15,689 nt of DNA from a virus (taxonomy: Duplodnaviria > Heunggongvirae > Uroviricota > Caudoviricetes). Location: IMG/VR virus record IMGVR_UViG_3300029009_000076. The stretch is one strand, 5' to 3'. The notes beneath the pieces were generated by a model. That model saw nothing but the letters and a program-made list of their open reading frames with translations. It made no database searches and was not told the origin of the DNA. This document shows positions 1 through 15,455 of this stretch, one piece after another. Each line of letters opens with the position of its first letter. The stretch's first letter is position 1. Position numbers and translations under genes: made by a program.

Positions 1-603
1 TCAATCAGGCTTTATTCTGTTTCGCTGTAATTTTTTTACTCCTTCAAATGGTTTAGTTGATATAAATCCCGACTGATACGCAAAACGCAACAGCGAACAG
101 AGCAGGGCGATATAGTTATCAACTGTGCGCACGGTTCTTCCTTTTTTGTTGGATCTTGGATTATCCAGGTAAAGCGTTTCTCCATGCAGCAGTTCATTCC
201 GGTAGTTTAAGATATCGCTATAACGAATATGTGATATCGGGGTACTTTCACAAATTATTATTCTGAGTGTTTTTAATTGTGATTTCGTTTTCTTCATTGT
301 GTTTGTTGTTAACTCTGTCTCTTTAATTTTTGTCCAGATATCACAAAGCTCTCCGAACGTTTTTATGACTCTCGTTGTCACCATTTTTGCCCCAGTGCTG
401 GACTGGGGAAAACGTCTTAAATACTCAAATTCACCGGAGTTTATTTCATGAACTATCAGCGATCTTAAATTTCCGGCCTTTTTAATATTACTGTTTGTAA
501 TCTCCCAGCCTTTTAATGTTTCCCGACATCGTTTTCCTCGAAACATGAACCAGATGCGAATGTATCTACCTCTAATCTCGACACCTGTTGGTAATTTAGA
601 CAT
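1..603 (-). CDS. intR: Prophage integrase, N-terminal 200 aa only (catalytic C-terminal part lies left of the window)
   Basis: ORF starts with ATG at 603-601 and runs off the left edge; N-terminus MSKLPTGVEIRGRYIRIWF... recognised as the Rac integrase arm-binding region; immediately followed by an excisionase-like gene. Confidence 0.8.
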   Translation of the reverse strand: MSKLPTGVEIRGRYIRIWFMFRGKRCRETLKGWEITNSNIKKAGNLRSLIVHEINSGEFEYLRRFPQSSTGAKMVTTRVIKTFGELCDIWTKIKETELTTNTMKKTKSQLKTLRIIICESTPISHIRYSDILNYRNELLHGETLYLDNPRSNKKGRTVRTVDNYIALLCSLLRFAYQSGFISTKPFEGVKKLQRNRIKPD

Positions 604-604
604 A

Positions 605-820
605 TCATGAGTCTTTGATAAACTGATTTATCTTTGGATAGTTGTACCAGATAATCCCTCGTTTGCTGTCTGGCTTACCTAAAGGAGATACTCGTTTGAA
701 GTGGAAGCCCTCCACCCAACAGTTCTGGCGGTATGCTTCAATTTGTCTGGCCCCCAGACCAGTGCGAAGCATCAGGCCGTATTCAACCATCCACTCTTCA
801 TTAAAGATTACTTGTGCCAT
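605..820 (-). CDS. xisR: Excisionase-like protein, 71 aa
   Basis: Protein [32 protein letters not shown]... recognised as Rac YdaQ/XisR; stop TGA (605-607) lies 1 nt from the int start codon. The ORF track extends the start to 844; the internal ATG at 820 matches the 71-aa form. Confidence 0.7.
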
Positions 821-898
821 CGCATCACCTCTGGCAGGCGCCAATGTTAGACTGAAATTGACGCCCGATGTTGATTATTAATAATCAGCTATGAAGTT

Positions 899-1108
899 TT
901 AATTTGAATACAATGCAATTCTCGAGGACTGAAGTTTCTCGCAATTAAAATTTATCAGTTTTACTTTCTGCTCTCTGGAAACGCCTGCTTCTTTTTTACC
1001 TGAGAGCATTTTTTCGCATTCTGATTTCGTTAGTTTAGATTTTGAATATCTTGTCCAGTTAGTAGGAGTGCCACCTTCCTTTTCAATAGTGGCGGTAATT
1101 TTATACAT
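899..1108 (-). CDS. ydaC: Small Rac protein YdaC-like, 69 aa
   Basis: MYKITATIEKEGGTPTNWTRYSKSKLTKSECEKMLSGKK... recognised as YdaC; start ATG at 1108-1106 overlaps the 3' end of ralR by 8 nt. Confidence 0.65.
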   Translation of the reverse strand: MYKITATIEKEGGTPTNWTRYSKSKLTKSECEKMLSGKKEAGVSREQKVKLINFNCEKLQSSRIALYSN

Positions 1109-1295
1109 GAACACCTCCATTATTATTTCCAGTGGTTCGTTTATTCCATCTTTCGAGTGCTTCTTTTTCACTTCCACCATAACCGGTTCGGGATTCGCAT
1201 CCGTTACACTTCGCTCGGTAATATCCTGAAATGGCTTTCACCGTTACTGATGGACAACCACAAAATGGACATGGTTTAACATTGTCATATCTCAT
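1101..1295 (-). CDS. ralR: Restriction-alleviation protein / type I toxin RalR (Lar family), 64 aa
   Basis: MRYDNVKPCPFCGCPSVTVKAISGYYRAKCNGCESRTGYGGSEKEALERWNKR... has the Cys-rich Lar-type motif; start ATG at 1295-1293. Confidence 0.8.
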   Translation of the reverse strand: MRYDNVKPCPFCGCPSVTVKAISGYYRAKCNGCESRTGYGGSEKEALERWNKRTTGNNNGGVHV

Positions 1296-1351
1296 AATTT
1301 TTCTCATAAAAAATATTTCAAGTTGGCGGTGCATTACACCGCCAGGCTGAA

Positions 1352-2161
1352 TTATTCCTCTGAATTATCGATTACACTGTATTCCCCGGTTAATACAGAG
1401 GAATCTGCAGGATCGATTGTCAGTGGTTCCTTTTCATCCATTGATACTGCACGCTGGATCTCAATTGATACGGGCAGATATTTGAACAGGCGACGAATAG
1501 CCGTTTTCTTTGCCATTTCTTCCCAGTGAGTTACCCACGGCCCGTTATTACCAGCTTTACTCAGGCTGCGCACCAGCTCAATCTGTTTGCGCGTCATAAC
1601 TTCAAACTGAGTACCTCCGTCTTTCAGTCTTGCGACAGCATAGACGTGGGTAACCGGGGCATCTTCGTTTTCTCCCGGGCGGTGTATTAACTTTTCATCA
1701 AGGCCAAATTCGAAGCTAAACTCGTCACCTTCACGGACAACACGGGCTGACAGGCTGGCGATTTGACCAGAACGGCGAGCCAGATCAATCATGCCGCGAT
1801 AGCCAATGATTAGCTGAACGTTCTTTTTACCGCTCTTTTCGTTTTTATTACCAAAAGGCAGTAAATATGCATGACCGAGGGCGCTACCTGGCTCAAGTCC
1901 GAGCTGTGAACACTGTACGATCGCACTGACAAAACTCATAGTGTCACAGTTTCCTAACGCCGGAACTTTACGAATTTCTGTGGTGGCGATACGGATCATA
2001 CGTTCAGCCGTCATATGGCGTGGAAGAGCTGCTGCCAGTTGCTCTTTCATTGATGGCTGGTTAATAAAACTAATCACGTCGCTATTTTTAACTGCTGCTG
2101 GTGCACGGTTTCCCTGAGTTTTTTGCAGATCGGCTTTTGCGATTGGTGGTTGCTTAGTCAT
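1352..2161 (-). CDS. recT: Recombinase RecT (single-strand annealing protein), 269 aa
   Basis: Protein from [24 protein letters not shown]... recognised as RecT; start ATG at 2161-2159 overlaps the recE stop by 8 nt. The ORF track's upstream extension to 2218 is not used. Confidence 0.9.
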
Positions 2162-4754
2162 TTGCATATTCCTTAGCCCAGCGGGGCAGTGATAATGTCT
2201 TAATAGCTGGCCATTCATCGGTATTCAGGCAGTCAGACAGGGTTCGCAGATTGCGGTGATATTCCTGTTGACCTGCCAGTTTTGCTTCTTCGCCCATCAT
2301 GAAAATTTCAACCGGATAACGTCCGCATTCAATAGTTGTGCTGGCAACCAGAAAAACGAAAGTTGGCTGCACTCCAAACTGTGCTTCATAACCGTCACTG
2401 TAGAATGCATCCTGAACGTGATAGCGGTAGTCGTAATAAGCGGTTTTGAATCGTTGAATATCCGCCGTAGTTTTCACGTCCATGATCCAGTGAAATTCAG
2501 GGATAATTTTGTCCGGACGGCACCGACACAAAATTCCTGTTTCAGGATCTTCCCAGTAAATTGATGATTCAGCGTGTCCGGCGCTTTCAACAAGCCATTG
2601 CCCCAGCGGCAAAGCCATAACGCTTTGATACATGAGTTCAATTTTCCGGCCTTCTTCCGCAGTGATAACCGTTTTTCCTGTGCTTGCGCATTCCATCAGA
2701 AACGCTTTCTCTTCTTCTTTTCCGGCGTTTGTACGGCGGTTAAATTCAGGTGCTACGATAAAGCGGTTACTGAATTCTTCCGGTTCAAGTACCCGGCAGT
2801 GGAAAGCAGTTCCTAAATCGAGCGTTTTTGTCTTTGTGGTGTCCACGGGGGCATTTTTACGCCACAAATATAGTGCCGGAGTATCAGCAATGTCATCGAG
2901 CTGAGACTTACTGATACCGGGACCCGCGTGGTAATTCTCATTCGAAATTCCGTAATAAATACCTGGCTCTATGTCTTCTACGATTACGGGATCTGCGACT
3001 TCGCCAGTTTCATCACTGCAATCGCGATGCGGATCGCTGCCAGCATTCTCATTGTGCGGATGTTCAGCGCCTTCCATTTCCTCCGGATCATTTTCCTTAG
3101 CTTCAACCTGACTCTCTTCATCGAATGTTTCCTGGTATGTTGCGTCGCCCATCACCGCACCACAGTCAGGGCAGTTATCCCCGCCAGTCTGGCCGCAGGC
3201 ATTGCAGGCTATTTCCGGTTCCTGTTGCACTACTGGCTCAGGTTGATTCATATCTGGGCTGGTTTTTTCCGTTTCTGGCTGGTTCTGGTACACACAATCG
3301 CGAGTCTGGATCCCCTTTACCCATTTCGGATCGTTCGGGTCGCTAATTCCGTCAACAAATTCACCACGTGATGCAGCAAGCAATTTATCGGCATCGACAG
3401 GATTTTTTGATGGAATGTTTTTCCGGGCTTCATGGAGTTCTGCCCGCAGTTCCTGATATTTCGCATCAACAGAATTTACCTGTGACTGAGCATCCAGCGG
3501 CTGCGTGTCCTGATGATGTTCAGTTGCGTCCGGTTCCATTGTTTCAGCCTCTCCCTGTTCAACTGCCGTTGTTCCAGATGGTTGCGGTTTTTCTTCATCA
3601 TCCTGTTTTCCTTCTTCTGTTACTCGCTGCGGCATCGGGGCAGAGGAGCGACCGCAGGCAATATCCACGATTTCCGGATCAGGGTTGGCATGATCGGTTT
3701 CAGTCAGTACTTTGTTCAGATATTCAGTGACGTGCGCGGGGATGACCTCGATCCCAATTGGTGCTTCTTTTACGGACGCAACCACGATGGCGCGGGAATA
3801 ATCCAGCCCGCCAGGCATGGTGATGAATTTGTCGCGGAAAACAGAAAAGGGCGGTTTATTTTCAGCGATAATTTCCTCAATGCGTTTAGCGTGTGCCGGA
3901 TGAAGGTTATAGATGTCCAGATCCATTGAACGGGCCAGTACGCCAGTGGCTACGTCGCGCGCCAGTGACGTCAGATCGTGTACGAAACCTTCGCCGCGAT
4001 CGGTGAGGTTTCCGCCGCCAGCATTAGCACCGGAAGCCGTGCGAGTGATGTGTGAAACACGATTACCCTTCATCCACTCTTTTGTCAGCAGTCCTCGATC
4101 GGTGTAGTCAGCGTTCAGGTATGCTTCGAAAAAAGCAGTTATCAGTCCCAGGTTTGAATTACCAGGATTAGGGAAAACTTTGTCAGTGTCACGAACCAGT
4201 TTGTGGAGTTCGCGAATTTCCAGCGGGTCGAGCAGGCTGGTTTTGTGGGAAACAGCCAGGGCAGTAACAGCCGGTAGTTCTTCAGCCCGAGCAATGTGTA
4301 ATGCCTGGAGTCCGTCGCGTGAAACGTGCGTTACCGGTTTTTCGCTGCCGTGTTGAGCAAGCCAACGAATGGGCAGTTCCTGGCCAGAAATTGGGAGTAG
4401 CATATTCTCCTCAATCTCAGTCATGTCTTCGCCGTTGACGTTGGTATTGCCTTGATAGTGAGCGTTGTCTGGTGCTGCTCCCGGTTTTAGTTCCCATGTC
4501 ATGGAGTCTTTGCTGAGTTGATAGCGTTCACTCCAGGTAAAATCGATCTCACCTTCAGCGGGCAGGTCATTAACGACAGGAAAATTCGTGGCAACAGCTT
4601 TAAAATAGCTGCTCAGTTTTTTACCTGACTTAACGATCAGGTAGTCCAGAGTGGCACAGGTCGATTCAAAATCGTTGCTTGCCCACAGGACGACGTCAGG
4701 TTCACCGGATGATTTTTTCGCTTTCCGTAACAGGAAGAGTGGTTTTGTGCTCAT
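2154..4754 (-). CDS. recE: Exodeoxyribonuclease VIII RecE, 866 aa
   Basis: Full 866-aa [32 protein letters not shown]...; acidic central region and C-terminal nuclease domain as in RecE; sits directly upstream of recT in one operon. Confidence 0.9.
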
Positions 4755-4825
4755 TGTTTTTTAACCTCAACTCAGATTAAAATTCGTTTTGTTCAGTGAA
4801 TGATCTTGCCGGATACACACTGTTC

Positions 4826-4857
4826 ATAGCCTGCGCCATACGCAGGCTATTTCTTTC
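4826..4857 (+). terminator. Intrinsic-terminator-like hairpin oriented on the plus strand, between recE and racC
   Basis: Perfect 10-bp stem ATAGCCTGCG / CGCAGGCTAT with 5-nt loop (4826-4850) followed by TTCTTTC; the T-tract is only on the plus-strand side. Confidence 0.4.
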
Positions 4858-5131
4858 AGATTTCACCTTTTAATTTCATTGCAATTAGAGTTGCCAGAAA
4901 TTCGGCTTTTTTTTCTGCGGGCAGATTCTTTCCGATATGCACCAGGCACATTTTTTTGACACCTTCATCAAGTGTTTTTACGTTGCCTGATGGACCATCG
5001 ATATCAACCACAGTGAATGGGGTTTCTTTATTTTCTGTTTTAATTACGTAGCCAATGCGCTTTCCTTCCAGATTCACCTCGTGAACAATGTCATCGGTAG
5101 TTACAACAGTGGCTTCATAATTGGTAATCAT
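4856..5131 (-). CDS. racC: RacC, 91 aa
   Basis: MITNYEATVVTTDDIVHEVNLEGKRIGYVIKTENKETPF... recognised as RacC; ATG at 5131-5129 is preceded (on the minus strand) by AAGGAG. The ORF track's longer start at 5179 is not used. Confidence 0.75.
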   Translation of the reverse strand: MITNYEATVVTTDDIVHEVNLEGKRIGYVIKTENKETPFTVVDIDGPSGNVKTLDEGVKKMCLVHIGKNLPAEKKAEFLATLIAMKLKGEI

Positions 5132-5205
5132 GTTTTTCTCCTTAATTAAGGTTGAGCGAATACCTGCCATTTCTGGCATAAATTCAGTTTCGAATAGTCA
5201 ATTAA

Positions 5206-5376
5206 TTAAAGTTCATGTGCCATCTGGTCTTTTTCGGCACAAGCTTCACTGCAATATTTTCTCGGTTCGTCTTTTGATAAAATCCCGTGCATGAAGTGAA
5301 GCATTCTTTCAATAGCTTTGCTTTCTTCAACGTCTTTTTTGCAAAGGTGGTAAGCACATTTTATTTTCTTAGTCAT
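5206..5376 (-). CDS. ydaE: Small Cys-rich (probable zinc-binding) protein YdaE, 56 aa
   Basis: Not in the ORF track (too short). Reverse-strand translation [56 protein letters not shown]; start ATG at 5376-5374 shares 1 nt with the kilR stop. Confidence 0.7.
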   Translation of the reverse strand: MTKKIKCAYHLCKKDVEESKAIERMLHFMHGILSKDEPRKYCSEACAEKDQMAHEL

Positions 5377-5597
5377 CACCATGACTCCGCCTTTACAGGT
5401 AAACCATCACGACCGAGGAAGACTTTAATCATGCGGTCAGTAATGCATGTTTTTGTGGTCAGGTTACGAATATATAGTTTTCGCTTTTTAATATTGTTTG
5501 CCGAGGCAATATATGTCCGGCCTTCATGAAGAACATAATCGCCAGGAGTCACACACTGACGTGGTATTTCATCAGTTCCGAAGTGATGTGCAATCAT
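5376..5597 (-). CDS. kilR: KilR, cell-division (FtsZ) inhibitor toxin, 73 aa
   Basis: [46 protein letters not shown]... recognised as KilR; GGAGA Shine-Dalgarno upstream of ATG 5597-5595. Confidence 0.8.
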
Positions 5598-6038
5598 AAT
5601 TATCTCCATTTTTACAAATGAACTTTGTTGATGCGGTGCCTGGTGCCTCCAGGTGACTGCAACCAGTTAACAATTACAGTCGGCTTTCCCACCCAAACCA
5701 ATAAGGACTAACATGACTTTTAACTGTGCCACGTGCGCTTAGCCGCATTCACCGCATCACAAAATTCACTTTAAAAAGGGCGGACATCAGCCGAACTTCA
5801 AGAAAAAAACTGATGCCGCCAGGACTACACACAGCAATGTCGTTATTTACAACCGGAGGCGCACTCCCACCATTTAAATTTAACAGACAAGACCGACTCT
5901 TTATGGATATCGGAAATGCGCCTTCGTGTTGTGCCCGGTTTTATTTCACCACCTCCGGGCTTCGGTGGTCTCGGCTATACCCCTACAGCGAGAGCTTGTG
6001 TTAACATTTCAATACCCTTACAGTTGAGAGTTATTGAT

Positions 6039-6527
6039 ATGTTGGATGTATTTACTCCATTGTTGAAACTTTTTGCTAACGAGCCACTCGAAAGACTTAT
6101 GTATACGATTATCATTTTTGGTCTCACTCTCTGGCTGATACCGAAAGAGTTTACTGTCGCATTCAATGCTTATACTGAAATACCTTGGCTCTTTCAGATT
6201 ATCGTTTTTGCCTTTTCTTTCGTGGTCGCCATTTCCTTCTCAAGATTGCGAGCGCATATTCAAAAGCATTATTCATTACTACCAGAGCAACGAGTATTGC
6301 TTCGTTTATCTGAGAAAGAAATCGCTGTATTTAAAGATTTCCTTAAAACAGGAAATCTTATTATCACTTCTCCTTGCCGTAACCCGGTTATGAAAAAATT
6401 AGAACGGAAGGGCATCATTCAACATCAGAGTGATAGCGCAAACTGTTCTTATTATCTCGTCACCGAAAAATACTCCCATTTTATGAAGTTATTCTGGAAC
6501 AGCAGGAGTAGACGTTTTAATCGTTAG
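6039..6527 (+). CDS. sieB: Superinfection exclusion protein SieB, 162 aa
   Basis: MLDVFTPLLKLFANEPLERLMYTIIIFGLTLWLIPKEF... with hydrophobic N-terminal helices; ATG at 6039. The ORF track's upstream extension from 5916 is not used. Confidence 0.8.
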   Translation: MLDVFTPLLKLFANEPLERLMYTIIIFGLTLWLIPKEFTVAFNAYTEIPWLFQIIVFAFSFVVAISFSRLRAHIQKHYSLLPEQRVLLRLSEKEIAVFKDFLKTGNLIITSPCRNPVMKKLERKGIIQHQSDSANCSYYLVTEKYSHFMKLFWNSRSRRFNR

Positions 6528-6679
6528 CTTACTGTGTGCTTCTCCAACCATCGGCGCGCACCAGTTTCGGTTTTAAATGTTTTGCTTTTGGTATACGTCA
6601 TGGCAGTGAACGTTCCATCCTGGTTGGGGAACACGCCGCACACCAGGGATTCGTTGTTGCCGAGGTCGATTTTTTGCAT
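6524..6679 (-). CDS. ydaF: Small Rac protein YdaF-like, 51 aa
   Basis: Not in the ORF track. Reverse translation MQKIDLGNNESLVCGVFPNQDGTFTAMTYTKSKTFKTETGARRWLEKHTVS; GAGGTG Shine-Dalgarno before ATG 6679-6677; 3' end overlaps the sieB stop convergently. Confidence 0.6.
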   Translation of the reverse strand: MQKIDLGNNESLVCGVFPNQDGTFTAMTYTKSKTFKTETGARRWLEKHTVS

Positions 6680-6689
6680 TTTTCGCACC

Positions 6690-6824
6690 TCACATCTTGT
6701 TGTTGCGGATAGAGGCTTCTGCTTGCCAGAGATCCCAGTCGTTGCTACGTAAAGCCTGCACAGCCGGGCTGTAAGTGATACCGCAACAATCCATCAAATA
6801 CTGAACTACTTCGTAATGCACCAT
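6690..6824 (-). CDS. ydaG: Small Rac protein YdaG-like, 44 aa
   Basis: C-terminal 44 aa of ORF 6690..6983: MVHYEVVQYLMDCCGITYSPAVQALRSNDWDLWQAEASIRNNKM; GGGGAGAGA Shine-Dalgarno before ATG 6824-6822. Confidence 0.6.
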   Translation of the reverse strand: MVHYEVVQYLMDCCGITYSPAVQALRSNDWDLWQAEASIRNNKM

Positions 6825-6840
6825 CTTATCTCTCCCCTTA

Positions 6841-7242
6841 ACGCCGGGTATATGGACCATCTGTCGTGGTGCCACAATGGTGGATGGTAAGCCCGTCATA
6901 CCGGGAATGAGGCTGTCGAAGGAAAAATGCGACCAGGTTAACGCTATTGAACGTGATAAGGCGCTGGCATGGGTGGAGCGCAATATTAAAGTACCACTGA
7001 CCGAACCACAGAAAGCGGGTATAGCGTCATTTTGTCCCTATAACATTGGCCCCGGTAAGTGTTTCCCGTCGACGTTTTATAAGCGGCTGAATGCCGGTGA
7101 TCGTAAGGGTGCATGCGAGGCGATTCGCTGGTGGATAAAAGATGGTGGGCGCGATTGCCGCATACGTTCAAATAACTGCTATGGACAGGTTATTCGTCGT
7201 GACCAGGAAAGCGCATTAGCCTGTTGGGGGATAGATCAGTGA
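6841..7242 (+). pseudogene. 5'-truncated phage lysozyme-type endolysin (R-like); roughly the N-terminal 40 aa, including the likely catalytic/SAR region, are missing
   Basis: Frame is open from 6817; the part ...PGIWTICRGATMVDGKPVIPGMRLSKEKCDQVNAIERDKALAWVERNIKVPLTEPQKAGIASFCPYNIGPGKCF...ACWGIDQ aligns by eye to lambdoid prophage lysozymes (RrrD-like), but no N-terminal region or plausible start is present; stop TGA 7240-7242 overlaps the Rz start. Confidence 0.65.
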
Positions 7243-7703
7243 GCAGAGTCGCCGCGATTATTTATGCTCTGGTTATCTGCATCATCGTCTGCCTGTCATG
7301 GGCTGTTAATCATTACCGTGATAACGCCACCGCCTACAAAGAGCAGCGCGACAAAAATGCCAGAGAACTGAAGCTGGCGAACGCGGCAATTACTGACATG
7401 CAGATGCGTCAGCGTGATGTTGCTGCGCTCGATGCAAAATACACGAAGGAGTTAGCTGATGCGAAAGCTGAAAATGATGCTCTGCGTGATGATGTTGCCG
7501 CTGGTCGTCGTCGGTTGCACATCAAAGCAGTCTGTCAGTCAGTGCGTGAAGCCACCACCGCCTCCGGCGTGGATAATGCAGCCTCCCCCCGACTGGCAGA
7601 CACCGCTGAACGGGATTATTTCACCCTCCGGGAACGACTGGTAATGATGCAGGCCCAACTTGAAGGTGCTCAGCAATACATAACCGAACAGTGTTTAAAG
7701 TAA
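7239..7703 (+). CDS. rzpR: Rz-type i-spanin (inner-membrane spanin), about 154 aa, apparently intact
   Basis: [60 protein letters not shown]... is near-identical in pattern to lambda Rz; likely GTG start at 7239 overlapping the endolysin stop (the track offers TTG at 7224). Confidence 0.8.
7459..7644 (+). CDS. rzoR: Rz1-type o-spanin lipoprotein, 61 aa, embedded in the +1 frame of Rz
   Basis: [52 protein letters not shown]...: signal peptide with lipobox ...VVGC and a proline-rich mature part; AAGGAG Shine-Dalgarno at 7446-7451. Confidence 0.8.
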
Positions 7704-7840
7704 AATCTTAACTACAATATGATTCATTTTGATGATTGTTTCATAAGGAACAGTGAAGTAAGATCTAAGAGGAGTTAAATTTTATACAGTATAATCATAA
7801 TATTGCAGCAAGGTGGTTATAATTGAAAGAATATTTAGAT

Positions 7841-9298
7841 ATGAATACATCTCATGTAAGAGTTGTTACTCATATGTGTGGGTTCCTGGTTTGGCTCTAT
7901 AGTCTTTCAATGTTGCCACCAATGGTTGTAGCATTGTTTTATAAAGAAAAAAGCCTATTCGTTTTCTTTATAACTTTCGTTATATTTTTTTGCATTGGTG
8001 GCGGAGCGTGGTATACAACTAAGAAATCTGGCATTCAATTACGTACCCGTGATGGGTTTATTATAATTGTAATGTTTTGGATTTTGTTTTCTGTTATTAG
8101 TGCATTCCCTTTATGGATTGACTCAGAACTTAATTTAACGTTCATTGATGCTCTGTTTGAAGGGGTTTCTGGAATAACAACAACAGGAGCAACTGTAATT
8201 GATGATGTTAGTTCATTACCTCGGGCATATTTGTACTATCGGTCACAGTTAAATTTTATAGGTGGTTTAGGAGTTATTGTTCTGGCGGTTGCTGTATTGC
8301 CATTATTGGGTATTGGTGGTGCAAAGCTTTATCAGTCAGAAATGCCGGGGCCATTTAAGGATGACAAACTCACTCCCCGCCTGGCCGATACGTCACGGAC
8401 ACTGTGGATAACTTATTCTTTATTAGGTATTGCTTGTATTGTCTGTTATAGACTTGCAGGAATGCCTTTGTTTGATGCTATTTGTCACGGGATTTCCACA
8501 GTTTCGCTTGGTGGTTTCTCAACTCATAGCGAGAGTATCGGATATTTTAATAACTATTTGGTTGAGCTGGTGGCTGGTTCTTTTTCCCTGCTATCGGCTT
8601 TCAACTTCACTCTTTGGTATATTGTTATTAGCAGGAAAACGATAAAACCTTTAATCAGAGATATTGAACTTCGTTTCTTTCTGTTAATAGCCTTAGGGGT
8701 GATCATTGTTACCTCTTTCCAGGTCTGGCATATAGGTATGTATGACTTGCATGGAAGTTTTATTCATTCGTTTTTTCTTGCCAGCTCCATGCTCACTGAT
8801 AATGGTTTAGCTACGCAGGATTATGCAAGCTGGCCCACGCACACGATAGTGTTTTTGCTGTCGTCAAGTTTCTTTGGGGGATGTATAGGTTCAACTTGTG
8901 GTGGAATTAAGTCACTTCGATTTCTTATACTTTTCAAACAAAGCAAACACGAGATAAATCAGCTTTCTCATCCCAGAGCGTTGTTGAGTGTAAATGTAGG
9001 AGGGAAGATAGTTACAGATCGTGTAATGAGGTCTGTATGGAGTTTCTTTTTTCTTTATACTCTCTTCACGGTGTTTTTTATACTGGTGTTAAATGGTATG
9101 GGATATGATTTTCTTACATCATTTGCAACAGTGGCTGCATGTATTAATAATATGGGATTAGGTTTTGGGGCTACTGCATCGTCATTCGGAGTGCTTAATG
9201 ACATTGCAAAATATTTAATGTGCATAGCTATGATTCTTGGTCGCCTTGAAATTTATCCTGTTATTATATTGTTTTCAGGTTTTTTTTGGCGCTCCTAA
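7841..9298 (+). CDS. trkG: Potassium uptake protein TrkG (TrkH/TrkG family), 485 aa; prophage moron
   Basis: MNTSHVRVVTHMCGFLVWLYSLSMLPP... is a polytopic membrane protein recognised as TrkG; gene and flanks are visibly AT-rich compared with neighbouring phage genes. The track's TTG start at 7823 is an alternative (see findings). Confidence 0.85.
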   Translation: MNTSHVRVVTHMCGFLVWLYSLSMLPPMVVALFYKEKSLFVFFITFVIFFCIGGGAWYTTKKSGIQLRTRDGFIIIVMFWILFSVISAFPLWIDSELNLTFIDALFEGVSGITTTGATVIDDVSSLPRAYLYYRSQLNFIGGLGVIVLAVAVLPLLGIGGAKLYQSEMPGPFKDDKLTPRLADTSRTLWITYSLLGIACIVCYRLAGMPLFDAICHGISTVSLGGFSTHSESIGYFNNYLVELVAGSFSLLSAFNFTLWYIVISRKTIKPLIRDIELRFFLLIALGVIIVTSFQVWHIGMYDLHGSFIHSFFLASSMLTDNGLATQDYASWPTHTIVFLLSSSFFGGCIGSTCGGIKSLRFLILFKQSKHEINQLSHPRALLSVNVGGKIVTDRVMRSVWSFFFLYTLFTVFFILVLNGMGYDFLTSFATVAACINNMGLGFGATASSFGVLNDIAKYLMCIAMILGRLEIYPVIILFSGFFWRS

Positions 9299-9384
9299 TA
9301 TATGGCTGATTTATAATTGTGAGTTTAATATTATATTGACTCACTCATTGATCCAATACCTAACTTTACCAGCAACACCTCCGC

Positions 9385-9420
9385 CCCCAGTAGCACTGGC
9401 TGCTGGGGTGCGTTTTATTC
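9385..9420 (+). terminator. Putative intrinsic terminator downstream of trkG
   Basis: 10-bp stem (9385-9394 / 9399-9408, one G-U pair) with 4-nt loop, followed by TGCGTTTTATTC. Confidence 0.45.
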
Positions 9421-9435
9421 ATAAAGCAAGGCTGT

Positions 9436-10224
9436 ATGAGCGAGAAATTAAAGATAGTCTATCGCCCATTACAAGAATTGTCACCGTATGCGCACAACGC
9501 CAGGACGCACAGTACTGAGCAGGTGGCACAACTGGTAGAAAGTATTAAGCAATTCGGCTGGACTAATCCGGTGCTGATTGACGAAAAGGGCGAAATTATT
9601 GCGGGTCACGGTCGTGTTATGGCGGCTGAAATGCTCAAAATGGATTCTGTTCCGGTCATTGTTCTGTCTGGCCTGACGGATGAGCAGAAAAAGGCGTACC
9701 GCCTGGCAGATAATCGCCTACCAATGAATGCTGGCTGGGATGAAGATCTGTTGCGGATGGAGCTGTCGGACCTAATCAATGCTGATTTTGATGTCTCCCT
9801 GACAGGCTTCGGCCCGACAGAAATTGATGAACTGTTGACGGATGTTTTGCCCGGTACAGGAAATAAGGAGGAGCCGTATACGACGAAAATTGATACGCCT
9901 GTTTATGAGCCGTCGGGCGGTAAACCGGATATCAGTGAACTGTACGACGATACGAAAACTCAGGAGCTGATCAGCCGGATACGTTCGGCGTCCCTTGATC
10001 CTGATATTGAGAAATTCCTCCTGTGTGCGGCAGAACGTCACACGGTGTTTAATTTCAGCAGAATTGCGGACTATTACGCTCATGCCCCCGCTGAAATTCA
10101 GTGCCTTTTCGAGGAGTCGGCGCTGGTGATCATTGATTATCAGCAGGCTATTGAAAATGGATTTGTCCGAATGACGCAGCGCATGGTGGCGATCATGCAT
10201 AGCGGGGAGGAGGAATATGCGTGA
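9436..10224 (+). CDS. ParB/Srx-like nuclease-domain protein, 262 aa (apparent full-length counterpart of the short K-12 Rac ynaK)
   Basis: N-terminal region IVYRPLQELSPYAHNARTHSTEQVAQLVESIKQFGWTNPVLIDEKGEIIAGHGRVMAAEMLKMDSVPVIVL has the ParB N-terminal domain pattern (GHGR in the position of the ParB arginine box); the C-terminal half is of unknown type; stop overlaps the next gene's start. Confidence 0.7.
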   Translation: MSEKLKIVYRPLQELSPYAHNARTHSTEQVAQLVESIKQFGWTNPVLIDEKGEIIAGHGRVMAAEMLKMDSVPVIVLSGLTDEQKKAYRLADNRLPMNAGWDEDLLRMELSDLINADFDVSLTGFGPTEIDELLTDVLPGTGNKEEPYTTKIDTPVYEPSGGKPDISELYDDTKTQELISRIRSASLDPDIEKFLLCAAERHTVFNFSRIADYYAHAPAEIQCLFEESALVIIDYQQAIENGFVRMTQRMVAIMHSGEEEYA

Positions 10225-11149
10225 TGATTTTTGCGCCTTTATTCTGACTCACGGGCGACCGGACAAAGTTCTGACTTACCGGACGTTGCGTCGTGCTGGC
10301 TATACCGGGAAAATTTTTATCGTTGTTGATGATGAAGATAAGACACGGCATCAGTACATGGCTGAATTTGGTGAACAGGTGCTGGTATTTTCCAAAGCCG
10401 ATATTGCCAGTCGTTTTGACGAAGCCGATAATTTTGGTGACCGCCGCTCAATTTTTTACGCCCGTAATGCCTGTTTCGACCTGGCAAAACTGGTCGGGTG
10501 TAAATACTTCATTCAGCTCGATGATGATTATCACGAGTTCCAGTTTCGGGTGGATCGCAACTATGACCAGGCCTATTTCCCGATAAGGAAACTGGATGCG
10601 ATCCTTTCTGAAATGCTGGCGTATTACGAATCAATACCCGCGCTTTCCATCGCTATGTCGCAGGGCGGGGATTTTCTTGGTGACAATGGCGGCCATGCTT
10701 CGTGGGTGAAACGCAAGGCAATGAACAGCTTTATCTGTTCGGTTGATCGACCGTTCTCATTCATGGGGCGCATTAACGAGGATGTGAATACGTACACGAA
10801 TCTCGGTCGCCGTGGTGAATTGTTTATGACGATCGGTGCTGTCCAGTTAGGGCAGAAACAGACGCAGAAAAACAGCGGCGGAATGACCGAGCTGTATCTG
10901 GATTCCGGGACCTACGTTAAAAGTTTTTATTCCGTCATGTATGCGCCGTCGTGCGTAAAAATCTCACTGATGGGCGCCAGCCATAAACGCATTCACCATC
11001 AGGTCACCTGGAACAACGCTGCAGTAAAAATCCTTCACGAAAAATACAGGAAGAAGACACCCTGCATATTAATGGGGGTGACAAATGATTCCGTATTCGA
11101 AAGTCGAGTCTCTGGCAGCGTGCCGGATGACTGCACAACAAATCGCTGA
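10217..11149 (+). CDS. Hypothetical protein, 310 aa, with GT-A-like glycosyltransferase motifs (tentative)
   Basis: Strong Shine-Dalgarno GGGGAGGAGG at 10204-10213; start ATGCGTGA overlaps the ParB-like stop. Motifs FCAFILTHGRPD ... GKIFIVVDDED ... KYFIQLDDDYHEF resemble the N-terminal strand, acidic strand and DxD motif of GT-A-fold nucleotide-sugar transferases. No methyltransferase or PP-loop motifs seen. Confidence 0.55.
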   Translation: MRDDFCAFILTHGRPDKVLTYRTLRRAGYTGKIFIVVDDEDKTRHQYMAEFGEQVLVFSKADIASRFDEADNFGDRRSIFYARNACFDLAKLVGCKYFIQLDDDYHEFQFRVDRNYDQAYFPIRKLDAILSEMLAYYESIPALSIAMSQGGDFLGDNGGHASWVKRKAMNSFICSVDRPFSFMGRINEDVNTYTNLGRRGELFMTIGAVQLGQKQTQKNSGGMTELYLDSGTYVKSFYSVMYAPSCVKISLMGASHKRIHHQVTWNNAAVKILHEKYRKKTPCILMGVTNDSVFESRVSGSVPDDCTTNR

Positions 11150-11336
11150 CGTTCTGGATGTTGATCTGAACCGACTGAAAGAAAATCGGGAAGCAATGAC
11201 AAATTTTTACGCGTCCATCCGTAAGGGCAGAGCGAAAGGTGAAGCCGAGCTACGGGCGGCATTGTTTAAGCTTGCCAGAAAAGGGGATGCCTTTGCCCTG
11301 CGCGAACTACTCAGGGTGGATAAAAATCAGGACTAA
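11085..11336 (+). CDS. Small helix-turn-helix-like protein, 83 aa (possibly DNA-packaging associated)
   Basis: GGGGGTG Shine-Dalgarno before ATG 11085; segment MTAQQIADVLDVDLNRLKENR looks like an HTH; overlaps the 3' end of the upstream gene; lies directly upstream of the terminase genes. Confidence 0.45.
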   Translation: MIPYSKVESLAACRMTAQQIADVLDVDLNRLKENREAMTNFYASIRKGRAKGEAELRAALFKLARKGDAFALRELLRVDKNQD

Positions 11337-11470
11337 CTGATGAGCAGACCGGACTGGGGGGCGTTGCAGCAGGAGTATATTGCTGAATACACCCGCTCCG
11401 GTATATCTCCGGTGGCATGGTGTGAAGCAATCAGTACCAGAAACGCTATACCGCAGACCTGGATTTACTG

Positions 11471-12049
11471 GTGAGTCAGTTGATGGCCATTGTCCAGGCC
11501 GACCCCAATCAGTTGGCACAATTTCGCCGTGTTAACTGCCGTTATTGCTGGGGCGAGAATCATCACTACCAGTGGCGCGATATAGCAGAATTCGATAAGG
11601 CAGCGGCGCAGGCCTCCAGAGATGGCAAACCCGAGCCGGAATATGGTGGCCTTGGCTTTGTTGATAACGCCATACCCAATCCGGACTGCCCGAAGTGCTG
11701 CGGTGAGGGAACGGGGCAGCTTTATATGGCTGATACCACTCTGCTTGATGGGGAAGCGCGGCAATTATATGCAGGGGCAAAGCTCGGAAAATTTGGTGTT
11801 GAGATCCTGCTGGAGGATAAGGCTGCCGCCCGGCGTGAATTGTTGCGTTTGCTTGCTGCTGGTGGGGCTTTATGTGCAGATAAGCGGCTACAGGAACTGG
11901 AAATTGAACGGCGCAGAATGGAAAACCAGAAGCTGCGCAAAGAGATCGAAACGGTGGAAGATAATGAACATCCCCAACCTGTGGCGATCAATATTAATGT
12001 GGTTGATGCCAGAGTAAGGAGTGATGAAGATGATCTCTCCGACGCTTAA
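11471..12049 (+). CDS. Putative terminase small subunit, 192 aa as given in the ORF track (possibly the 3' part of a frame-disrupted gene)
   Basis: Position immediately upstream of, and overlapping, the terminase large subunit; Cys4 cluster (CRYC ... CPKCC) and charged coiled-coil-like C-terminus (LQELEIERRRMENQKLRKEIE). The only start is GTG; the frame is open from 11426 and a 44-aa ATG ORF (11340-11474) overlaps in another frame. Confidence 0.5.
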   Translation: MSQLMAIVQADPNQLAQFRRVNCRYCWGENHHYQWRDIAEFDKAAAQASRDGKPEPEYGGLGFVDNAIPNPDCPKCCGEGTGQLYMADTTLLDGEARQLYAGAKLGKFGVEILLEDKAAARRELLRLLAAGGALCADKRLQELEIERRRMENQKLRKEIETVEDNEHPQPVAININVVDARVRSDEDDLSDA

Positions 12050-13049
12050 TGTGCCTCAGGCGCGATTTCTTTCAATGCCCCATAAATTTAAAGCCTATAT
12101 TGCTGGTTTTGGCTCGGGCAAAACATGGGTTGGGTGTGGCGGCATATGCAAGGGGATTTGGGAGCATCCAGGTATAAATCAGGGATATTTTGCGCCAACG
12201 TATCCCCAAATTCGCGATATTTTTTACCCTACAGTGGAAGAAGTTGCTGCTGACTGGGGATTGAACGTAAAAATTAATGAGGGAAATAAAGAGGTTCACT
12301 TTTATTACGGACGCCAGTATCGGGGAACCACTATCTGCAGATCGATGGAGAAGCCACAAACGATCGTCGGTTTCAAAATTGGTAATGCGTTGGTGGATGA
12401 ACTGGACATTTTGCCGAAGGAAAAAGCCAGAACGGCGTGGCGCAAGATAATTGCGCGTATGCGTTATAAGATTGATGGACTTCGCAACGGTATTGACGTT
12501 ACAACCACGCCGGAAGGATTCAAATTTGTCTACGAGCAGTTTGTTAAAGCCGTGCGTGAAAAAACAGAGCTGGCCTCACTGTATGGTCTGGTGCAGGCAT
12601 CTACTTTCGATAATGAAAAGAACCTGCCAGCAGATTACATTCCTTCGCTTCTTGAATCATACCCTCCAGAGCTGATTAAAGCCTATCTGCGAGGACAGTT
12701 TACTAACCTGACAAGTGGTACTGTTTACCATCAGTTTGACCGGAAACTGAATAATTGCGAAGAAGTGGAGCAGCCAGGGGAGCCGATTTATATTGGGATG
12801 GATTTTAACGTTGGAAAGATGGCGGGAATCGTCCATGTGCTGCGTTTGGGGCTTCCATGTGCGGTAACTGAAATCATCAATGCCTACGATACGCCGGATA
12901 TGATCCGCATCATTAAAGAACGCTTCTGGCCGTATGACGGGCATGATTACCGGAAAGTGAGGGAGATTTATATTTATCCAGATGCTTCCGGAGATTCCAG
13001 AAAATCAAGTAACGCAAGTACGACGGATATACCCGGATCGCAACAGTAA
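12030..13049 (+). pseudogene. Terminase large subunit, ATPase domain only; truncated at the start of the nuclease domain
   Basis: Walker A AGFGSGKT and Walker B-like ALVDELDIL; AAGGAG Shine-Dalgarno at 12016-12021; the ORF ends after IYIGMDFNVGK... at about 340 aa, whereas full-length large terminases have a C-terminal nuclease domain beyond this point. Confidence 0.7.
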
Positions 13050-13741
13050 GCGGTAATACATCCCTTATAACAGCCAAAGCTGAACAACAGGGCGAGTGGA
13101 CCTACTATGAGGCCACTTATACAGCTAATACGGACATTGATACCGTTAACTGTGCTTTTTATATGACAAATAAAATAAGTAATGAGCCATTCTATGATGA
13201 CTCAACATTAACCATGACGACGCCGCAAATTGAACTGGGCAATACGGCATCGTCATTTATTGTAACTACAATGCCAACAACACGCGCAAGTGATGTGGTT
13301 ACTATCCCCTCGGCGAATAACCTGTCAACACGGCCTTTTACAGTATTGTGCGAAGTAAGGAGGAACTGGAGTACACCGCCCAATGTTGCGCCAAGGATAT
13401 TTGATGTTGGAGGGCACAGTATTGATGATAATTATTTATCGCTGGGGTTTGTTTCAACAGGAAAGATAAGCGCCAACGTAGGAATGGTTCAGCCACAAAT
13501 TTCCTCAGATGGAGAAAGGTTCATTGTGGGTGTGAGAGCTAAATCTGATTTATCAGTAAATGCAATATGCAATGGTAATTATACAACAAACCTTAATGGT
13601 AAAATATTTGGAGTTACAGCAACATCGTACCGGTTTGGTGGGCAGACCGCAGCAGGAACGCGTCATTTGTTTGGACACATCAGAAATTTCAGAGTCTGGT
13701 TTAAAGAATTAAATGACAGGCAAATCAAGGAGGCAGTATGA
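13013..13741 (+). pseudogene. Phage tail / tail-fibre protein, 3' fragment
   Basis: Frame is open from 13013 with no plausible start (the track's ATG at 13163 is internal); Thr/Ser/Asn/Gly-rich beta-type sequence ...TYYEATYTANTDIDTVN ... GKIFGVTATSYRFGGQTAAGTRHLFGHIRNFRVWF...; position corresponds to the Rac tail-protein remnant. Family assignment is weak. Confidence 0.45.
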
Positions 13742-14016
13742 AAGATTTAACTTTGAAATTTCCTGGTAACAGAGAGTTTAAATCCTTCCTGTCATCTCTT
13801 GACTGGGAGGAAGATGAAGACCTCCAGAATAAACTGTTAGTCGATGAAATTGGTTTCACCTACACAGAAACAGGGGTAACTGAAGAGGGAGAACCTGTCT
13901 GTATCCGGAATAACGGTTATTTTGTCAACATTCGCATTCTTGATGACTTGTTTGATGTTTCTGTATTCTCTGATTATGTCGTGGAGCTGGAAACACCGCT
14001 TCGGGAATGGAGCTGA
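13738..14016 (+). CDS. Hypothetical acidic protein, 92 aa
   Basis: AAGGAGG Shine-Dalgarno at 13727-13733; ATGA overlap with the end of the tail-fragment frame; no recognisable motif. Confidence 0.5.
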   Translation: MKDLTLKFPGNREFKSFLSSLDWEEDEDLQNKLLVDEIGFTYTETGVTEEGEPVCIRNNGYFVNIRILDDLFDVSVFSDYVVELETPLREWS

Positions 14017-14028
14017 AAGGAGGAAATA

Positions 14029-14322
14029 ATGGATATAAGCCCCTTACTTCATGCACTTTGTGCTGTGGCTGCGCAGATACTGGTTGGTCTTTTTACCGGA
14101 AACTGGGCTTACGGAGCGATAGCCGGTTGTACGTTCTTCATTGCGCGTGAACATACCCAGGCAGAATATCGCTGGATTGAAATGTTCGGGCATGGCAAGC
14201 GAATGAATATGCCGTGGTGGGGCGGTTTTGATCCGCGCGCGTGGGATGTGGCAAGCCTGATGGATTTTGCTGTGCCGGTGGTGGCGTGTCTGCTGGTCTG
14301 GCTGTTGGTTAATCGTGGGTGA
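14029..14322 (+). CDS. Hypothetical small membrane protein, 97 aa, two or three predicted transmembrane segments
   Basis: Near-consensus Shine-Dalgarno AAAGGAGG at 14016-14023; hydrophobic stretches [34 protein letters not shown] and [18 protein letters not shown] with a Trp/Arg-rich loop between. Confidence 0.6.
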
Positions 14323-14329
14323 AAAAAGG

Positions 14330-14452
14330 TGGGCTGTATATGCAACGGAGGAAGAAACCTCGTTGCTGGAAGCATGGAAAAAGTATCGGGTATTGCTGAA
14401 CCGTGTTGATACGTCAACTGCACAGGATATTGAATGGCCAGCACTGCCGTAG
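14330..14452 (+). pseudogene. Tail fibre assembly protein (Tfa), 3' remnant of about 40 codons
   Basis: ...[39 protein letters not shown] matches the conserved C-terminus of lambdoid Tfa proteins as I recall it; no N-terminal part or start codon; begins immediately after the membrane-protein stop. Confidence 0.6.
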
Positions 14453-14548
14453 GGTAAAACATATAAATTCTATAATTAGATGTATCTTTCCATTTACGGC
14501 AAGGAAGGGGGCTTGGAAGACGTAAAGCATCTCACACCGAGATTATTT

Positions 14549-15139: not shown

Positions 15140-15455
15140 AGTGAGACTCTATACGAAATTGGTGTTCATATCATAATGCATCTCAGAAAATAATTATGAT
15201 TATTTTTGTGCATATTTGTATGTACACGTTCGAAAATAAACGAATGCGTATGCAACCCCGTAATTTTGGTGAGACCCAAAATCGATTTTGTGAAAAATGG
15301 CTTTAACTCGGTTTGTTTTTCGAGTTCCGGGCGGACTCAAGGAAGAAGAATAGTGTTGCGTGTTATTTTAACCAGATTTCAAGTTGTTTGGTCGTGGAAA
15401 AGTGGAGCAAAATGTTGTTAAAGTGGAAAAATGATAAAAAAGTAAGTTTATTATA

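What the first reader, a model, noticed from the sequence alone, without database searches (positions are those of the whole stretch)
6811..6880. Deletion junction: ydaG start region fused to the middle of an endolysin gene
The ydaG start codon (6824-6822) and its Shine-Dalgarno lie within about 20 bp of the first residues of the lysozyme that still align (around 6841). Everything normally between them in a lambdoid prophage (immunity repressor, cro/cII-like genes, replication genes, nin region, Q, holin, endolysin N-terminus) is absent. The prophage therefore lacks its own repressor, yet kilR, ralR and sieB remain, which raises the question of how kilR toxicity is kept silent in this host. 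Rz and Rz1 are intact although the endolysin is broken and no holin is present.
Basis: partly seen in the sequence, partly recalled or inferred. Interest (0 to 1): 0.5.

Follow-up and report, generated by a model that had tools for sequence, protein, structure and literature searches.

The report
Rac prophage internal deletion scar
This is a real but ordinary deletion scar in a decayed E. coli Rac prophage: it joins the DNA just upstream of ydaG to codon 47 of a phage lysozyme gene, and it removed the repressor together with the promoters and operators that the repressor controlled.

Summary
The ydaG start is at 6824-6822 on the minus strand, with its Shine-Dalgarno at 6830-6837. Identity to a full-length phage-21-type lysozyme gene begins at 6847-6850.

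The window matches E. coli B (REL606) Rac almost base for base on both sides. It lacks 1,019 bp that B retains: a truncated holin, ydfR, a small ORF and lysozyme codons 1-46. Against the fuller Rac of ATCC 8739 it lacks 11,629 bp. One GGT (6847-6849) is shared by both parents, which is the mark of a microhomology deletion.

The remnant has lost the signal-anchor segment and catalytic E35 and D44. Rz and Rz1 are intact. The window holds no repressor ORF and no RacR-type operator.

The junction is absent from 5,426 complete E. coli genomes. It is identical in three independent metagenome assemblies, so it is an inherited allele and not an artefact.

The kilR question has a simple answer. The strong leftward promoter and its operators upstream of ydaG went with the deletion, so the ydaG-kilR operon has no promoter. 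ralR keeps its own RalA antitoxin.

One curiosity remains. The B-type deletion, this deletion and an IS1 insertion in other strains all map to the same 6 bp. Low interest.

The parts
6690..6824 (-). ydaG (44 aa), the first gene of the Rac leftward early operon; intact
   Evidence: Translation. Same position as REL606 WP_000233810.1.
6825..6849 (-). All that remains of the ydaG leader: 25 nt including the Shine-Dalgarno GGGGAGAG (6830-6837). K-12 has about 163 nt of leader plus the promoter and operators here.
   Evidence: Sequence. K-12 promoter and operator positions.
6847..6849 (.). The deletion junction: GGT is present at both parental sites and one copy is kept (3-bp microhomology)
   Evidence: The two REL606 alignments overlap by 3 nt.
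6850..7242 (+). 3' remnant of a phage-21-type (GH24) lysozyme gene: codons 48-177 plus the stop. It lacks the N-terminal signal-anchor segment and E35 and D44. The longest ATG ORF is 6877-7242 (121 aa).
   Evidence: Pfam PF00959, profile positions 27-125 of 125. The full-length protein matches the PDB lysozyme entries 3HDE/3HDF and RrrD (4ZPU).
7239..7703 (+). Rz (i-spanin), intact, 154 aa
   Evidence: Identical to the REL606 protein. Pfam Phage_lysis, E = 8.5e-53.
7459..7644 (+). Rz1 (o-spanin lipoprotein), embedded in Rz in another frame; intact, 61 aa
   Evidence: Identical to K-12 RzoR. It has the lipobox LVVVGC and a proline-rich C-terminal part.
5376..5597 (-). kilR (FtsZ/MreB inhibitor), intact, downstream of ydaG and ydaF on the same strand
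   Evidence: Annotation of the near-identical REL606 stretch.
6039..6527 (+). sieB (superinfection exclusion)
   Evidence: Pfam SieB, E = 3e-31. REL606 annotation.
1101..1295 (-). ralR, type I toxin
   Evidence: REL606 annotation. Pfam Lar_restr_allev.
924..1102 (+). RalA antitoxin sRNA, which neutralises ralR independently of any prophage repressor
   Evidence: Rfam RF02694, 225 bits against a gathering score of 170.

Best explanation
The junction is the scar of an illegitimate, short-homology deletion inside a Rac cryptic prophage of an E. coli lineage closely related to strain B.

The event. DNA 25 nt upstream of the ydaG start codon was joined to codon 47 of a phage-21-type endolysin gene at a shared GGT. 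The right breakpoint sits in the loop of a predicted hairpin, so replication slippage or break repair between short repeats is the likely mechanism (inferred).
- Against a fuller Rac (ATCC 8739 type) the loss is 11,629 bp. It covers the leader and promoter/operator region, the immunity repressor, the cro-like and ydaT genes, replication genes, the nin/Q region, tRNAs, holin, ydfR and lysozyme codons 1-46.
- Against the B-type Rac it is a further 1,019 bp.
- Either route needs two events. I slightly favour the two-step route (about 0.5 against 0.4).

The scar has no function.
- The lysozyme remnant lacks its signal-anchor segment and two of its three catalytic residues.
- There is no holin.
- Rz and Rz1 are undamaged passengers.

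kilR needs no repressor here. The same deletion removed what drives the leftward operon in K-12: the near-consensus promoter and its two operators upstream of ydaG, and the racR promoter with its three operators. The ydaG-ydaF-kilR-ydaE-racC operon is therefore promoterless (inferred from sequence). ralR is held by its own RalA sRNA.
For: Shown by tool results:
- Both flanks are identical or nearly so to REL606, with an abrupt switch and a 3-nt overlap.
- The right arm matches ATCC 8739 with 1 mismatch in 4,584 bp. That prophage has every gene between ydaG and the lysozyme.
- The parental lysis cassette (holin, ydfR, a small ORF, lysozyme, Rz) is also seen intact in CFT073 and BS15R-A.
- The B-type junction comes from an 11/13 homology, TTAAC[GC/AA]CGGGTG, between the Rac leader and full-length essD.
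- The right breakpoint lies in a hairpin, GATGGTtCC-ggtatat-GGACCATC: -15.3 kcal/mol, z = -2.8, and none of 200 shuffles folds as well.
- Two more deletions in the window carry 4-6 bp microhomologies, so the same mode of decay recurs.
- The junction is present in three independent assemblies. One is 99.91% identical over 13.66 kb and lies in the normal uspF-ompN context.
- In K-12 an 11/12 sigma-70 promoter reads leftward about 170 bp upstream of ydaG.
- The motif TAGG-N5-CCTAAT gives 8 matches in 25 kb of K-12 Rac, all in two clusters: two sites on that promoter and three in the racR-ydaS spacer. The expected number is 0.93, and none of 100 shuffles reaches 8.
- The window has no copy of that motif.
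- The region from 5300 to 7900 has only chance-level 9/12 promoter matches.
- RalA is present.

From the literature:
- Lowering RacR raises ydaG, ydaF, kilR, ydaE and racC 40- to 70-fold (PMC6765115; bioRxiv 10.64898/2026.09.06.749655).
- Transcription from the racR promoter is stopped by a Rho terminator inside racR, which suppresses kil (PMC4150792).
- Deletions of racR-ydaS that leave kilR are viable, and kilR is found in more genomes (48%) than ydaS, which always co-occurs with racR (33.7%) (PMC5700373).
Against: - There are no expression data for this allele, so promoterlessness is inferred from consensus scans and from comparison with K-12.
- Two weak promoter-like matches (9/12) lie on the minus strand at 7309-7281 and 7644-7615. 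They could give low read-in.
- The rest of the genome is unknown, so a cross-reacting repressor from another prophage cannot be excluded.
- The order of events (one step or two) is unresolved.
- This deletion, the B-type deletion and an IS1 insertion in other strains all fall within 1-4 bp of each other on the left. A plain random-deletion model does not explain that.
- A 3-bp microhomology alone is weak evidence of mechanism.
Confidence: 0.85

Rival explanations
1. An IS1-driven deletion. An IS1 inserted after ...AACGCCGGG upstream of ydaG produced adjacent deletions of different lengths in different lineages. It was then lost, leaving the B-type and window-type junctions.
For: IS1 sits exactly after G of ...CGCCGGG in a metagenome contig (L045) and in 3 complete genomes. 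In SCU-172 it has no 9-bp target duplication, and everything from racR to the tail genes is gone, as expected of an IS1 adjacent deletion or an IS1-IS1 recombination.
Against: The window junction holds no IS1 base. After an adjacent deletion no flanking direct repeats remain to allow clean excision, and this would have had to happen twice. The B-type junction is fully explained by an 11/13 homology with essD, without any IS. The ydaG allele of SCU-172 differs from the B and window allele.
Confidence: 0.07
2. An assembly or chimera artefact: two Rac fragments were misjoined at a short repeat.
For: None of 5,426 complete E. coli genomes has the junction, and none of the GTDB species representatives has it.
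Against: The identical junction occurs in separately assembled metagenome contigs from different samples. L005 and L006 are 100% identical to the window over more than 7.5 kb. L061 differs by 12 substitutions over 13.66 kb but has the same junction. A 3-bp repeat cannot mislead an assembler.
Confidence: 0.02
3. The junction created a functional gene or regulatory fusion: a truncated lysozyme, or a holin-leader/lysozyme fusion, expressed from the sieB side.
For: The frame is open from 6817 through the junction into the lysozyme frame. A 121-aa ATG ORF remains (6877-7242) and gene callers call it. sieB, the remnant, Rz and trkG are all on the plus strand.
Against: No start codon lies between the upstream stop and M at 6877. 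The product lacks the signal-anchor segment and E35 and D44 of the E-X8-D-X5-T triad. The Pfam match lacks the first 26 profile positions. No recognisable Shine-Dalgarno precedes 6877.
Confidence: 0.03
4. kilR is still transcribed and is kept harmless by other means: Rho/NusG termination, H-NS silencing, or the DicF-like KilS RNA region. Promoter loss would then not be the explanation.
For: In K-12, Rho and NusG are needed to keep kil silent (PMC4150792; PMC12482147). A DicF-like element lies upstream of kilR at 5778-5833. The intergenic region between sieB and kilR is intact.
Against: The Rho terminator described lies inside racR, which is deleted here, together with the promoter it acts on. 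No consensus-like minus-strand promoter was found between the junction and kilR.
Confidence: 0.2

Closest known systems
Rac cryptic prophage of E. coli B (REL606, BL21) and about 60 other complete genomes
   Same: The left arm (intR to ydaG) differs by 1 base in 6,846. The right arm (lysozyme codon 47 to ynaK) is identical over 2,820 bp. Both lack racR, ydaS/T, the replication genes and Q. The left breakpoints lie within 1-4 bp of each other.
   Different: B keeps a holin lacking its first 10 codons, ydfR, a small ORF and a complete lysozyme; the window has lost these 1,019 bp. B has a different late-region deletion (from ynaK' to upstream of the DUF6651 gene), whereas the window keeps ynaK, the TAGT gene and the terminase genes. 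Neither is therefore the ancestor of the other.
Rac prophage of E. coli K-12 MG1655
   Same: Same left-arm gene order and same trkG. It also has an internal deletion that destroyed the lysis cassette but left RzoR (Rz1).
   Different: K-12 keeps racR, its operators, ydaS/T/U/V/W and the ydaG leader. Its deletion runs from ydaW into Rz, so Rz is a pseudogene there, while Rz is intact here.
Near-complete Rac-like prophage of E. coli ATCC 8739
   Same: It carries the holin, ydfR, lysozyme, Rz, trkG, ynaK and terminase stretch at 99.9-100% identity to the window's right arm. It sits at the same ttcA site, so it serves as a model of the parental arrangement.
   Different: It holds the 11,629 bp that the window lacks. 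Its left arm is only 99.2% identical, and its immunity repressor is not racR.
Phage 21 lysis cassette (S21 pinholin, R21 signal-anchor-release endolysin, Rz/Rz1)
   Same: The full-length parental lysozyme matches the PDB lysozyme entries 3HDE/3HDF (E = 3e-16) and has E35, D44 and T50 with the same spacing. The holin is of the S21/EssD type, and Rz1 is embedded in Rz.
   Different: Here only lysozyme residues 48-177 and the spanins survive, so the cassette cannot work.
Qin prophage dicB operon (ydfA-ydfB-ydfC-dicF-dicB, repressed by DicA)
   Same: Both have a leftward early operon with a DUF1391 gene, a DicF-like RNA and a division inhibitor, all under an immunity repressor. The Qin organisation itself is stated from my own knowledge.
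   Different: In this window the controlling promoter and repressor have both been deleted.

Membership tests
Rac cryptic prophage | Left-arm gene order intR-xisR-rcbA-ralR/RalA-recT-recE-racC-ydaE-kilR-sieB-ydaF-ydaG | tested here: met
   99.7-99.99% nucleotide identity to K-12 and REL606 Rac over window 4-6849. Pfam and Rfam hits agree.
Rac cryptic prophage | Integration at ttcA, with uspF-ompN on the far side | tested here: inconclusive
   The window starts inside intR, which is cut by an IS, so ttcA is not seen. In L005 the left neighbour is an IS3-family element followed by type VI secretion genes. The right flank uspF-ompN-ydbK is seen in the near-identical contig L061.
Rac cryptic prophage | trkG cargo gene next to the lysis region | tested here: met
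   Window 7841-9298 is identical to REL606 trkG.
Rac cryptic prophage | RacR immunity module (racR, ydaS/T, TAGG-N5-CCTAAT operators) | tested here: not met
   Absent: no homologous DNA, no repressor domain and no operator motif. The window is therefore a Rac remnant without its immunity region.
GH24 phage-21-type signal-anchor-release endolysin | Phage_lysozyme (PF00959) fold | tested here: met
   E = 5.9e-16, but only profile positions 27-125 of 125 are covered.
GH24 phage-21-type signal-anchor-release endolysin | Catalytic triad E-X8-D-X5-T (E35, D44, T50) | tested here: not met
   The parental protein has E35, D44 and T50. The window keeps only residues from G47/I48 onward, so E35 and D44 are deleted.
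GH24 phage-21-type signal-anchor-release endolysin | N-terminal weakly hydrophobic Gly/Ala-rich signal-anchor segment | tested here: not met
   The parental residues around 8-24 (GLSAAVLALIAVGAPAP) are missing from the window.
Rz/Rz1 two-component spanin | Rz with an N-terminal membrane anchor and the Phage_lysis domain | tested here: met
   PF03245, E = 8.5e-53, 154 aa, identical to the REL606 protein.
Rz/Rz1 two-component spanin | Rz1 lipoprotein gene embedded in Rz in another frame, with a lipobox Cys and a Pro-rich mature part | tested here: met
   Window 7459-7644: [20 protein letters not shown]... with PPPPP, identical to K-12 RzoR.
Microhomology-flanked (illegitimate) deletion | A short identical sequence at both parental endpoints, with one copy kept at the junction and no inserted bases | tested here: met
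   GGT is at REL606 9844-9846 and 10863-10865, with one copy at window 6847-6849 and no filler. The homology is only 3 bp (CCGG-T if a 1-nt bulge is allowed).
IS1 adjacent deletion | An IS1 end retained at the breakpoint | tested here: not met
   No IS1 sequence lies at 6840-6860. IS1 is present at this site only in other lineages.

The most novel reading that the evidence does not exclude
The 6-bp stretch CGGGTG, 20-25 nt upstream of the ydaG start, is a true hotspot for DNA rearrangement in Rac-like prophages. At least three independent events map there: the B-type 10.6-kb deletion, this deletion, and an IS1 insertion with loss of the whole right arm. A natural mosaic boundary to a different immunity module lies 12 bp further on. 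The stretch also sits about 15 bp inside a roughly 155-bp leader that is conserved, unannotated, in about 2,000 E. coli genomes. If this reflects a structural or enzymatic cause, and not chance plus selection for losing the toxic immunity region, it would be a defined site where cryptic prophages repeatedly break as they are domesticated.
Probability: 0.25. Interest if true: 0.3.

Novelty: new member of a known kind. Interest (0 to 1): 0.12.

Why it matters
It matters little beyond record-keeping. It is one more allele in the well-known stepwise decay of Rac.

Two points are modestly useful.
1. It is a natural case in which repressor, operators and promoters were lost together. This shows how a prophage can shed its immunity module yet keep a lethal division inhibitor (kilR) safely. 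Strains with this allele or the B allele should need Rho less to tolerate Rac.
2. Several independent rearrangements cluster at one 6-bp site upstream of ydaG. This is a small lead, testable in principle, on where lambdoid prophages tend to break.

Tried and rejected
- An exact 30-nt junction word gave no hit in the GTDB species-representative genomes. No contiguous match across the junction was found in 5,426 complete E. coli genomes. The allele had to be found by exact look-up of the truncated 121-aa product and of the terL' fusion product.
- I looked for a DNA structure at the left breakpoint to explain the coincident endpoints. Folds of the K-12 and B-type sequences were no better than shuffles (z = +0.7 and +0.8). 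Only the right breakpoint has a significant hairpin.
- I tested the IS1 idea. IS1 is at the site in other lineages but left no trace here, and the B junction is explained by homology with essD. I kept it only as a low-probability rival.
- I tried to settle one step against two steps from relatives. No complete genome combines the B-type junction with the terminase region. Both routes need two events, so this stays unresolved.
- Rfam on the K-12 ydaG-racR leader found no known RNA family. A put- or nut-like role for the conserved leader remains only a thought.
- A mosaic-exchange reading, in which a module swap replaces a deletion, was rejected. The junction cuts the lysozyme domain in mid-fold, and both flanks are collinear with one parental prophage.

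Full report
WHAT IS IN THE SEQUENCE

Window 6690-6824 on the minus strand encodes a 44-aa protein. It lies where REL606 and BL21 annotate the ydaG-like gene WP_000233810.1. Its ATG is at 6824-6822, and GGGGAGAG (6837-6830, minus strand) lies 5 nt upstream.

Reading rightward on the plus strand, the frame gives ...ILSLPLTPG-IWTICRGATMVDGKPV... and runs to a stop at 7240-7242. From IWTICRG onward this is residues 48-177 of a 177-aa lysozyme.

The longest ATG ORF, 6877-7242, matches Pfam Phage_lysozyme only from profile position 27 of 125. The full-length parental protein matches the PDB lysozyme entries 3HDE/3HDF and RrrD (4ZPU). It has E35, D44 and T50, which is the E-X8-D-X5-T triad of that family; the triad's role is established knowledge and was not tested here. 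The window keeps only T50 and has lost the Gly/Ala-rich N-terminal segment.

Rz (7239-7703) is identical to the REL606 protein. Rz1 (7459-7644) is identical to K-12 RzoR.

WHERE THE WINDOW COMES FROM

The window is a Rac prophage remnant.
- Window 4-6849 equals REL606 Rac with one mismatch.
- Window 6847-9666 equals it with none.
- Window 13029-15689 matches it at 99.96%, with a single gap.
- K-12 Rac matches 4-6849 at 99.7% and resumes only at 7266, inside Rz.

THE JUNCTION

The two REL606 alignments overlap by GGT (6847-6849) and are 1,019 bp apart in REL606. That 1,019 bp holds a holin lacking its first 10 codons, ydfR, a small minus-strand ORF and lysozyme codons 1-46.

ATCC 8739 carries a far more complete Rac at ttcA. 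It has identical YdfR, lysozyme, Rz and TrkG proteins, and its right arm differs from the window by 1 base in 4,584. Against it the window lacks 11,629 bp. The missing stretch runs from the ydaG leader through the immunity repressor, the cro-like gene, ydaT, replication genes, a methyltransferase and nuclease pair, hok, the DUF1367/1364/1133 genes, two tRNAs, holin and ydfR, up to lysozyme codon 46.

The same lysis cassette is intact in prophages of CFT073 and BS15R-A.

IS IT REAL?

No complete E. coli genome out of 5,426 aligns across the junction. No GTDB representative holds the junction word.

Exact look-up of the truncated product found contigs L005 and L006, which are 100% identical to window 1-7585 and 1-7628. 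Look-up of the second fusion product found L061. It is collinear with window 2030-15689 at 99.91%, includes the junction, and is followed by uspF-ompN-ydbK.

The junction is therefore an inherited allele of a natural gut lineage.

MECHANISM OF FORMATION

The parental sites are ...AACGCCGGGT|G... on the left and ...GGTTCCGGT|ATATGG... in the lysozyme. They share GGT, or CCGG-T if one bulged base is allowed.

The right breakpoint lies in the loop of GATGGTtCC-ggtatat-GGACCATC. As single-stranded DNA this region folds at -15.3 kcal/mol, against a shuffle mean of -9.4 (z = -2.8, 0 of 200 shuffles as good). The left site has no significant fold.

The window holds two more internal deletions of the same style:
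- a roughly 382-bp loss in the small terminase gene at 11427-11430, with GCAA shared;
- a terL'|tail-fibre fusion at 13029-13034.

I infer replication slippage or end joining at short repeats. This is a mechanism class, and no specific event has been shown.

RELATION TO THE B-TYPE JUNCTION

In B, the Rac leader ...TTAACGCCGGGTG is joined to essD ...TTAACAACGGGTG|TCGCC. That is an 11/13 match with a perfect CGGGTG at the crossover. The left ends of the B deletion and of this one therefore fall within the same 6 bp.

Neither prophage descends from the other, because each keeps late-region DNA that the other lacks. Both the one-step route and the two-step route need two events. I could not decide between them.

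A THIRD EVENT AT THE SAME SITE

I scanned public contigs for the left anchor. The anchor was followed by one of five things:
- the wild-type continuation;
- the B type;
- the window type;
- a variant that switches to another immunity module 12 bp further on;
- in L045, the end of IS1.

Three complete genomes have this IS1. In SCU-172 it is a 768-bp IS1 without a target duplication, and everything from racR to the tail genes is gone.

The window has no IS1 bases, so I treat IS1 involvement as unlikely here. The clustering is recorded as unexplained.

WHY kilR IS NOT A PROBLEM

K-12 has a TTGACA-17-TATAGT promoter reading leftward about 170 bp upstream of ydaG. The palindrome TAGG-N5-CCTAAT gives 8 matches in 25 kb of K-12 Rac, all in two clusters:
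- two sites on that promoter;
- three sites in the racR-ydaS spacer.

The expected number is 0.93. This is a lambda-like OL/OR layout, which is an inference because binding has not been shown. The window has none of these sites. Only chance-level promoter matches lie to the right of the junction.

The literature agrees.
- Depleting RacR raises ydaG, ydaF, kilR, ydaE and racC 40- to 70-fold (PMC6765115; bioRxiv 10.64898/2026.09.06.749655).
- The racR-promoter transcript is stopped by a Rho terminator inside racR, which suppresses kil (PMC4150792).
- racR-ydaS deletions that keep kilR are viable, and kilR occurs in more genomes (48%) than ydaS, which always co-occurs with racR (33.7%) (PMC5700373).

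All known sources of kilR transcription are inside the deleted segment. ralR is covered by RalA at 924-1102. sieB is not toxic.

VERDICT

The feature is an ordinary prophage-decay scar, and it is a new allele of a well-known kind. Its only unusual aspect is that independent rearrangements recur at one 6-bp site.

Noticed in passing
window 1-603; L005 1860-3127: intR is cut after codon 200, so only the arm-binding and SAM-like N-terminal domains remain. Window bases 1-3 (TCA) are not Rac DNA. In contig L005 they continue into ...CCCGGGGCGGTTCA, the end of an IS3-family element (IS629/IS1203-like by my recollection of its inverted repeat), followed by type VI secretion genes. This prophage can no longer excise by its own integrase.
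   Followed up: partly
window 13029-13034: A second deletion junction. The N-terminal 339 aa of the large terminase subunit are fused to the distal part of a tail-fibre gene, with a short shared GGATA-like sequence. The fusion ORF is found identically in other assemblies (L061-L063).
   Followed up: partly
window 11427-11430: A third internal deletion, about 382 bp, inside the small terminase gene relative to ATCC 8739 and LR-64-2, with the 4-bp microhomology GCAA.
   Followed up: partly
window 9436-11149: A full-length ParB-like YnaK (262 aa; only a fragment survives in K-12 and B) is followed by a 310-aa protein that matches Pfam TAGT (TET-associated glycosyltransferase, E = 5.8e-36). Some NCBI records call it 'GREB1-related protein'. 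It may be a phage DNA-modification pair, and it sits just upstream of the terminase genes.
   Followed up: no
window 5778-5833 (minus strand); also 5590-5776: A DicF-like RNA element lies upstream of kilR (Rfam DicF, 39.1 bits, below the gathering score of 48, E = 1.7e-6). It corresponds to the K-12 sRNA KilS. Next to it is a sub-threshold STnc100 match. Together with the DUF1391 gene ydaF, this makes the Rac left operon a parallel of the Qin ydfABC-dicF-dicB operon.
   Followed up: partly
L004 (K-12) 8466-8621, mostly deleted in the window (only 8466-8482 remains, as window 6833-6849): The roughly 155-bp leader between the leftward promoter and ydaG is found at 86-89% identity, unannotated, as the best match in about 2,000 E. 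coli genome records, including O157:H7 prophages. No Rfam family matches it. It might be a nut- or put-like antitermination or regulatory RNA.
   Followed up: partly
L057 (SCU-172) 9146-9913; L045 14276-14330: IS1 is inserted exactly at the ydaG-proximal breakpoint in other lineages. It has no target duplication, and the whole right arm of Rac is lost.
   Followed up: yes
L002 (REL606) 9820-10032 and the same gene in BL21, E. coli C and others: RefSeq annotates the B-strain holin fragment as an intact 'phage lysis protein EssD' (WP_012775985.1). Its reading frame begins ILSLPLTPG..., that is with an ATC codon inside the ydaG leader. It is in fact a holin missing its first 10 codons, so this looks like an annotation artefact.
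   Followed up: partly
L004 (K-12) 8631-8670 and 9270-9337: The motif TAGG-N5-CCTAAT gives 8 matches in K-12 Rac, all in two clusters that flank racR (2 + 3 sites; 0.93 expected). This suggests OL and OR operators of RacR in a lambda-like layout.
   Followed up: partly
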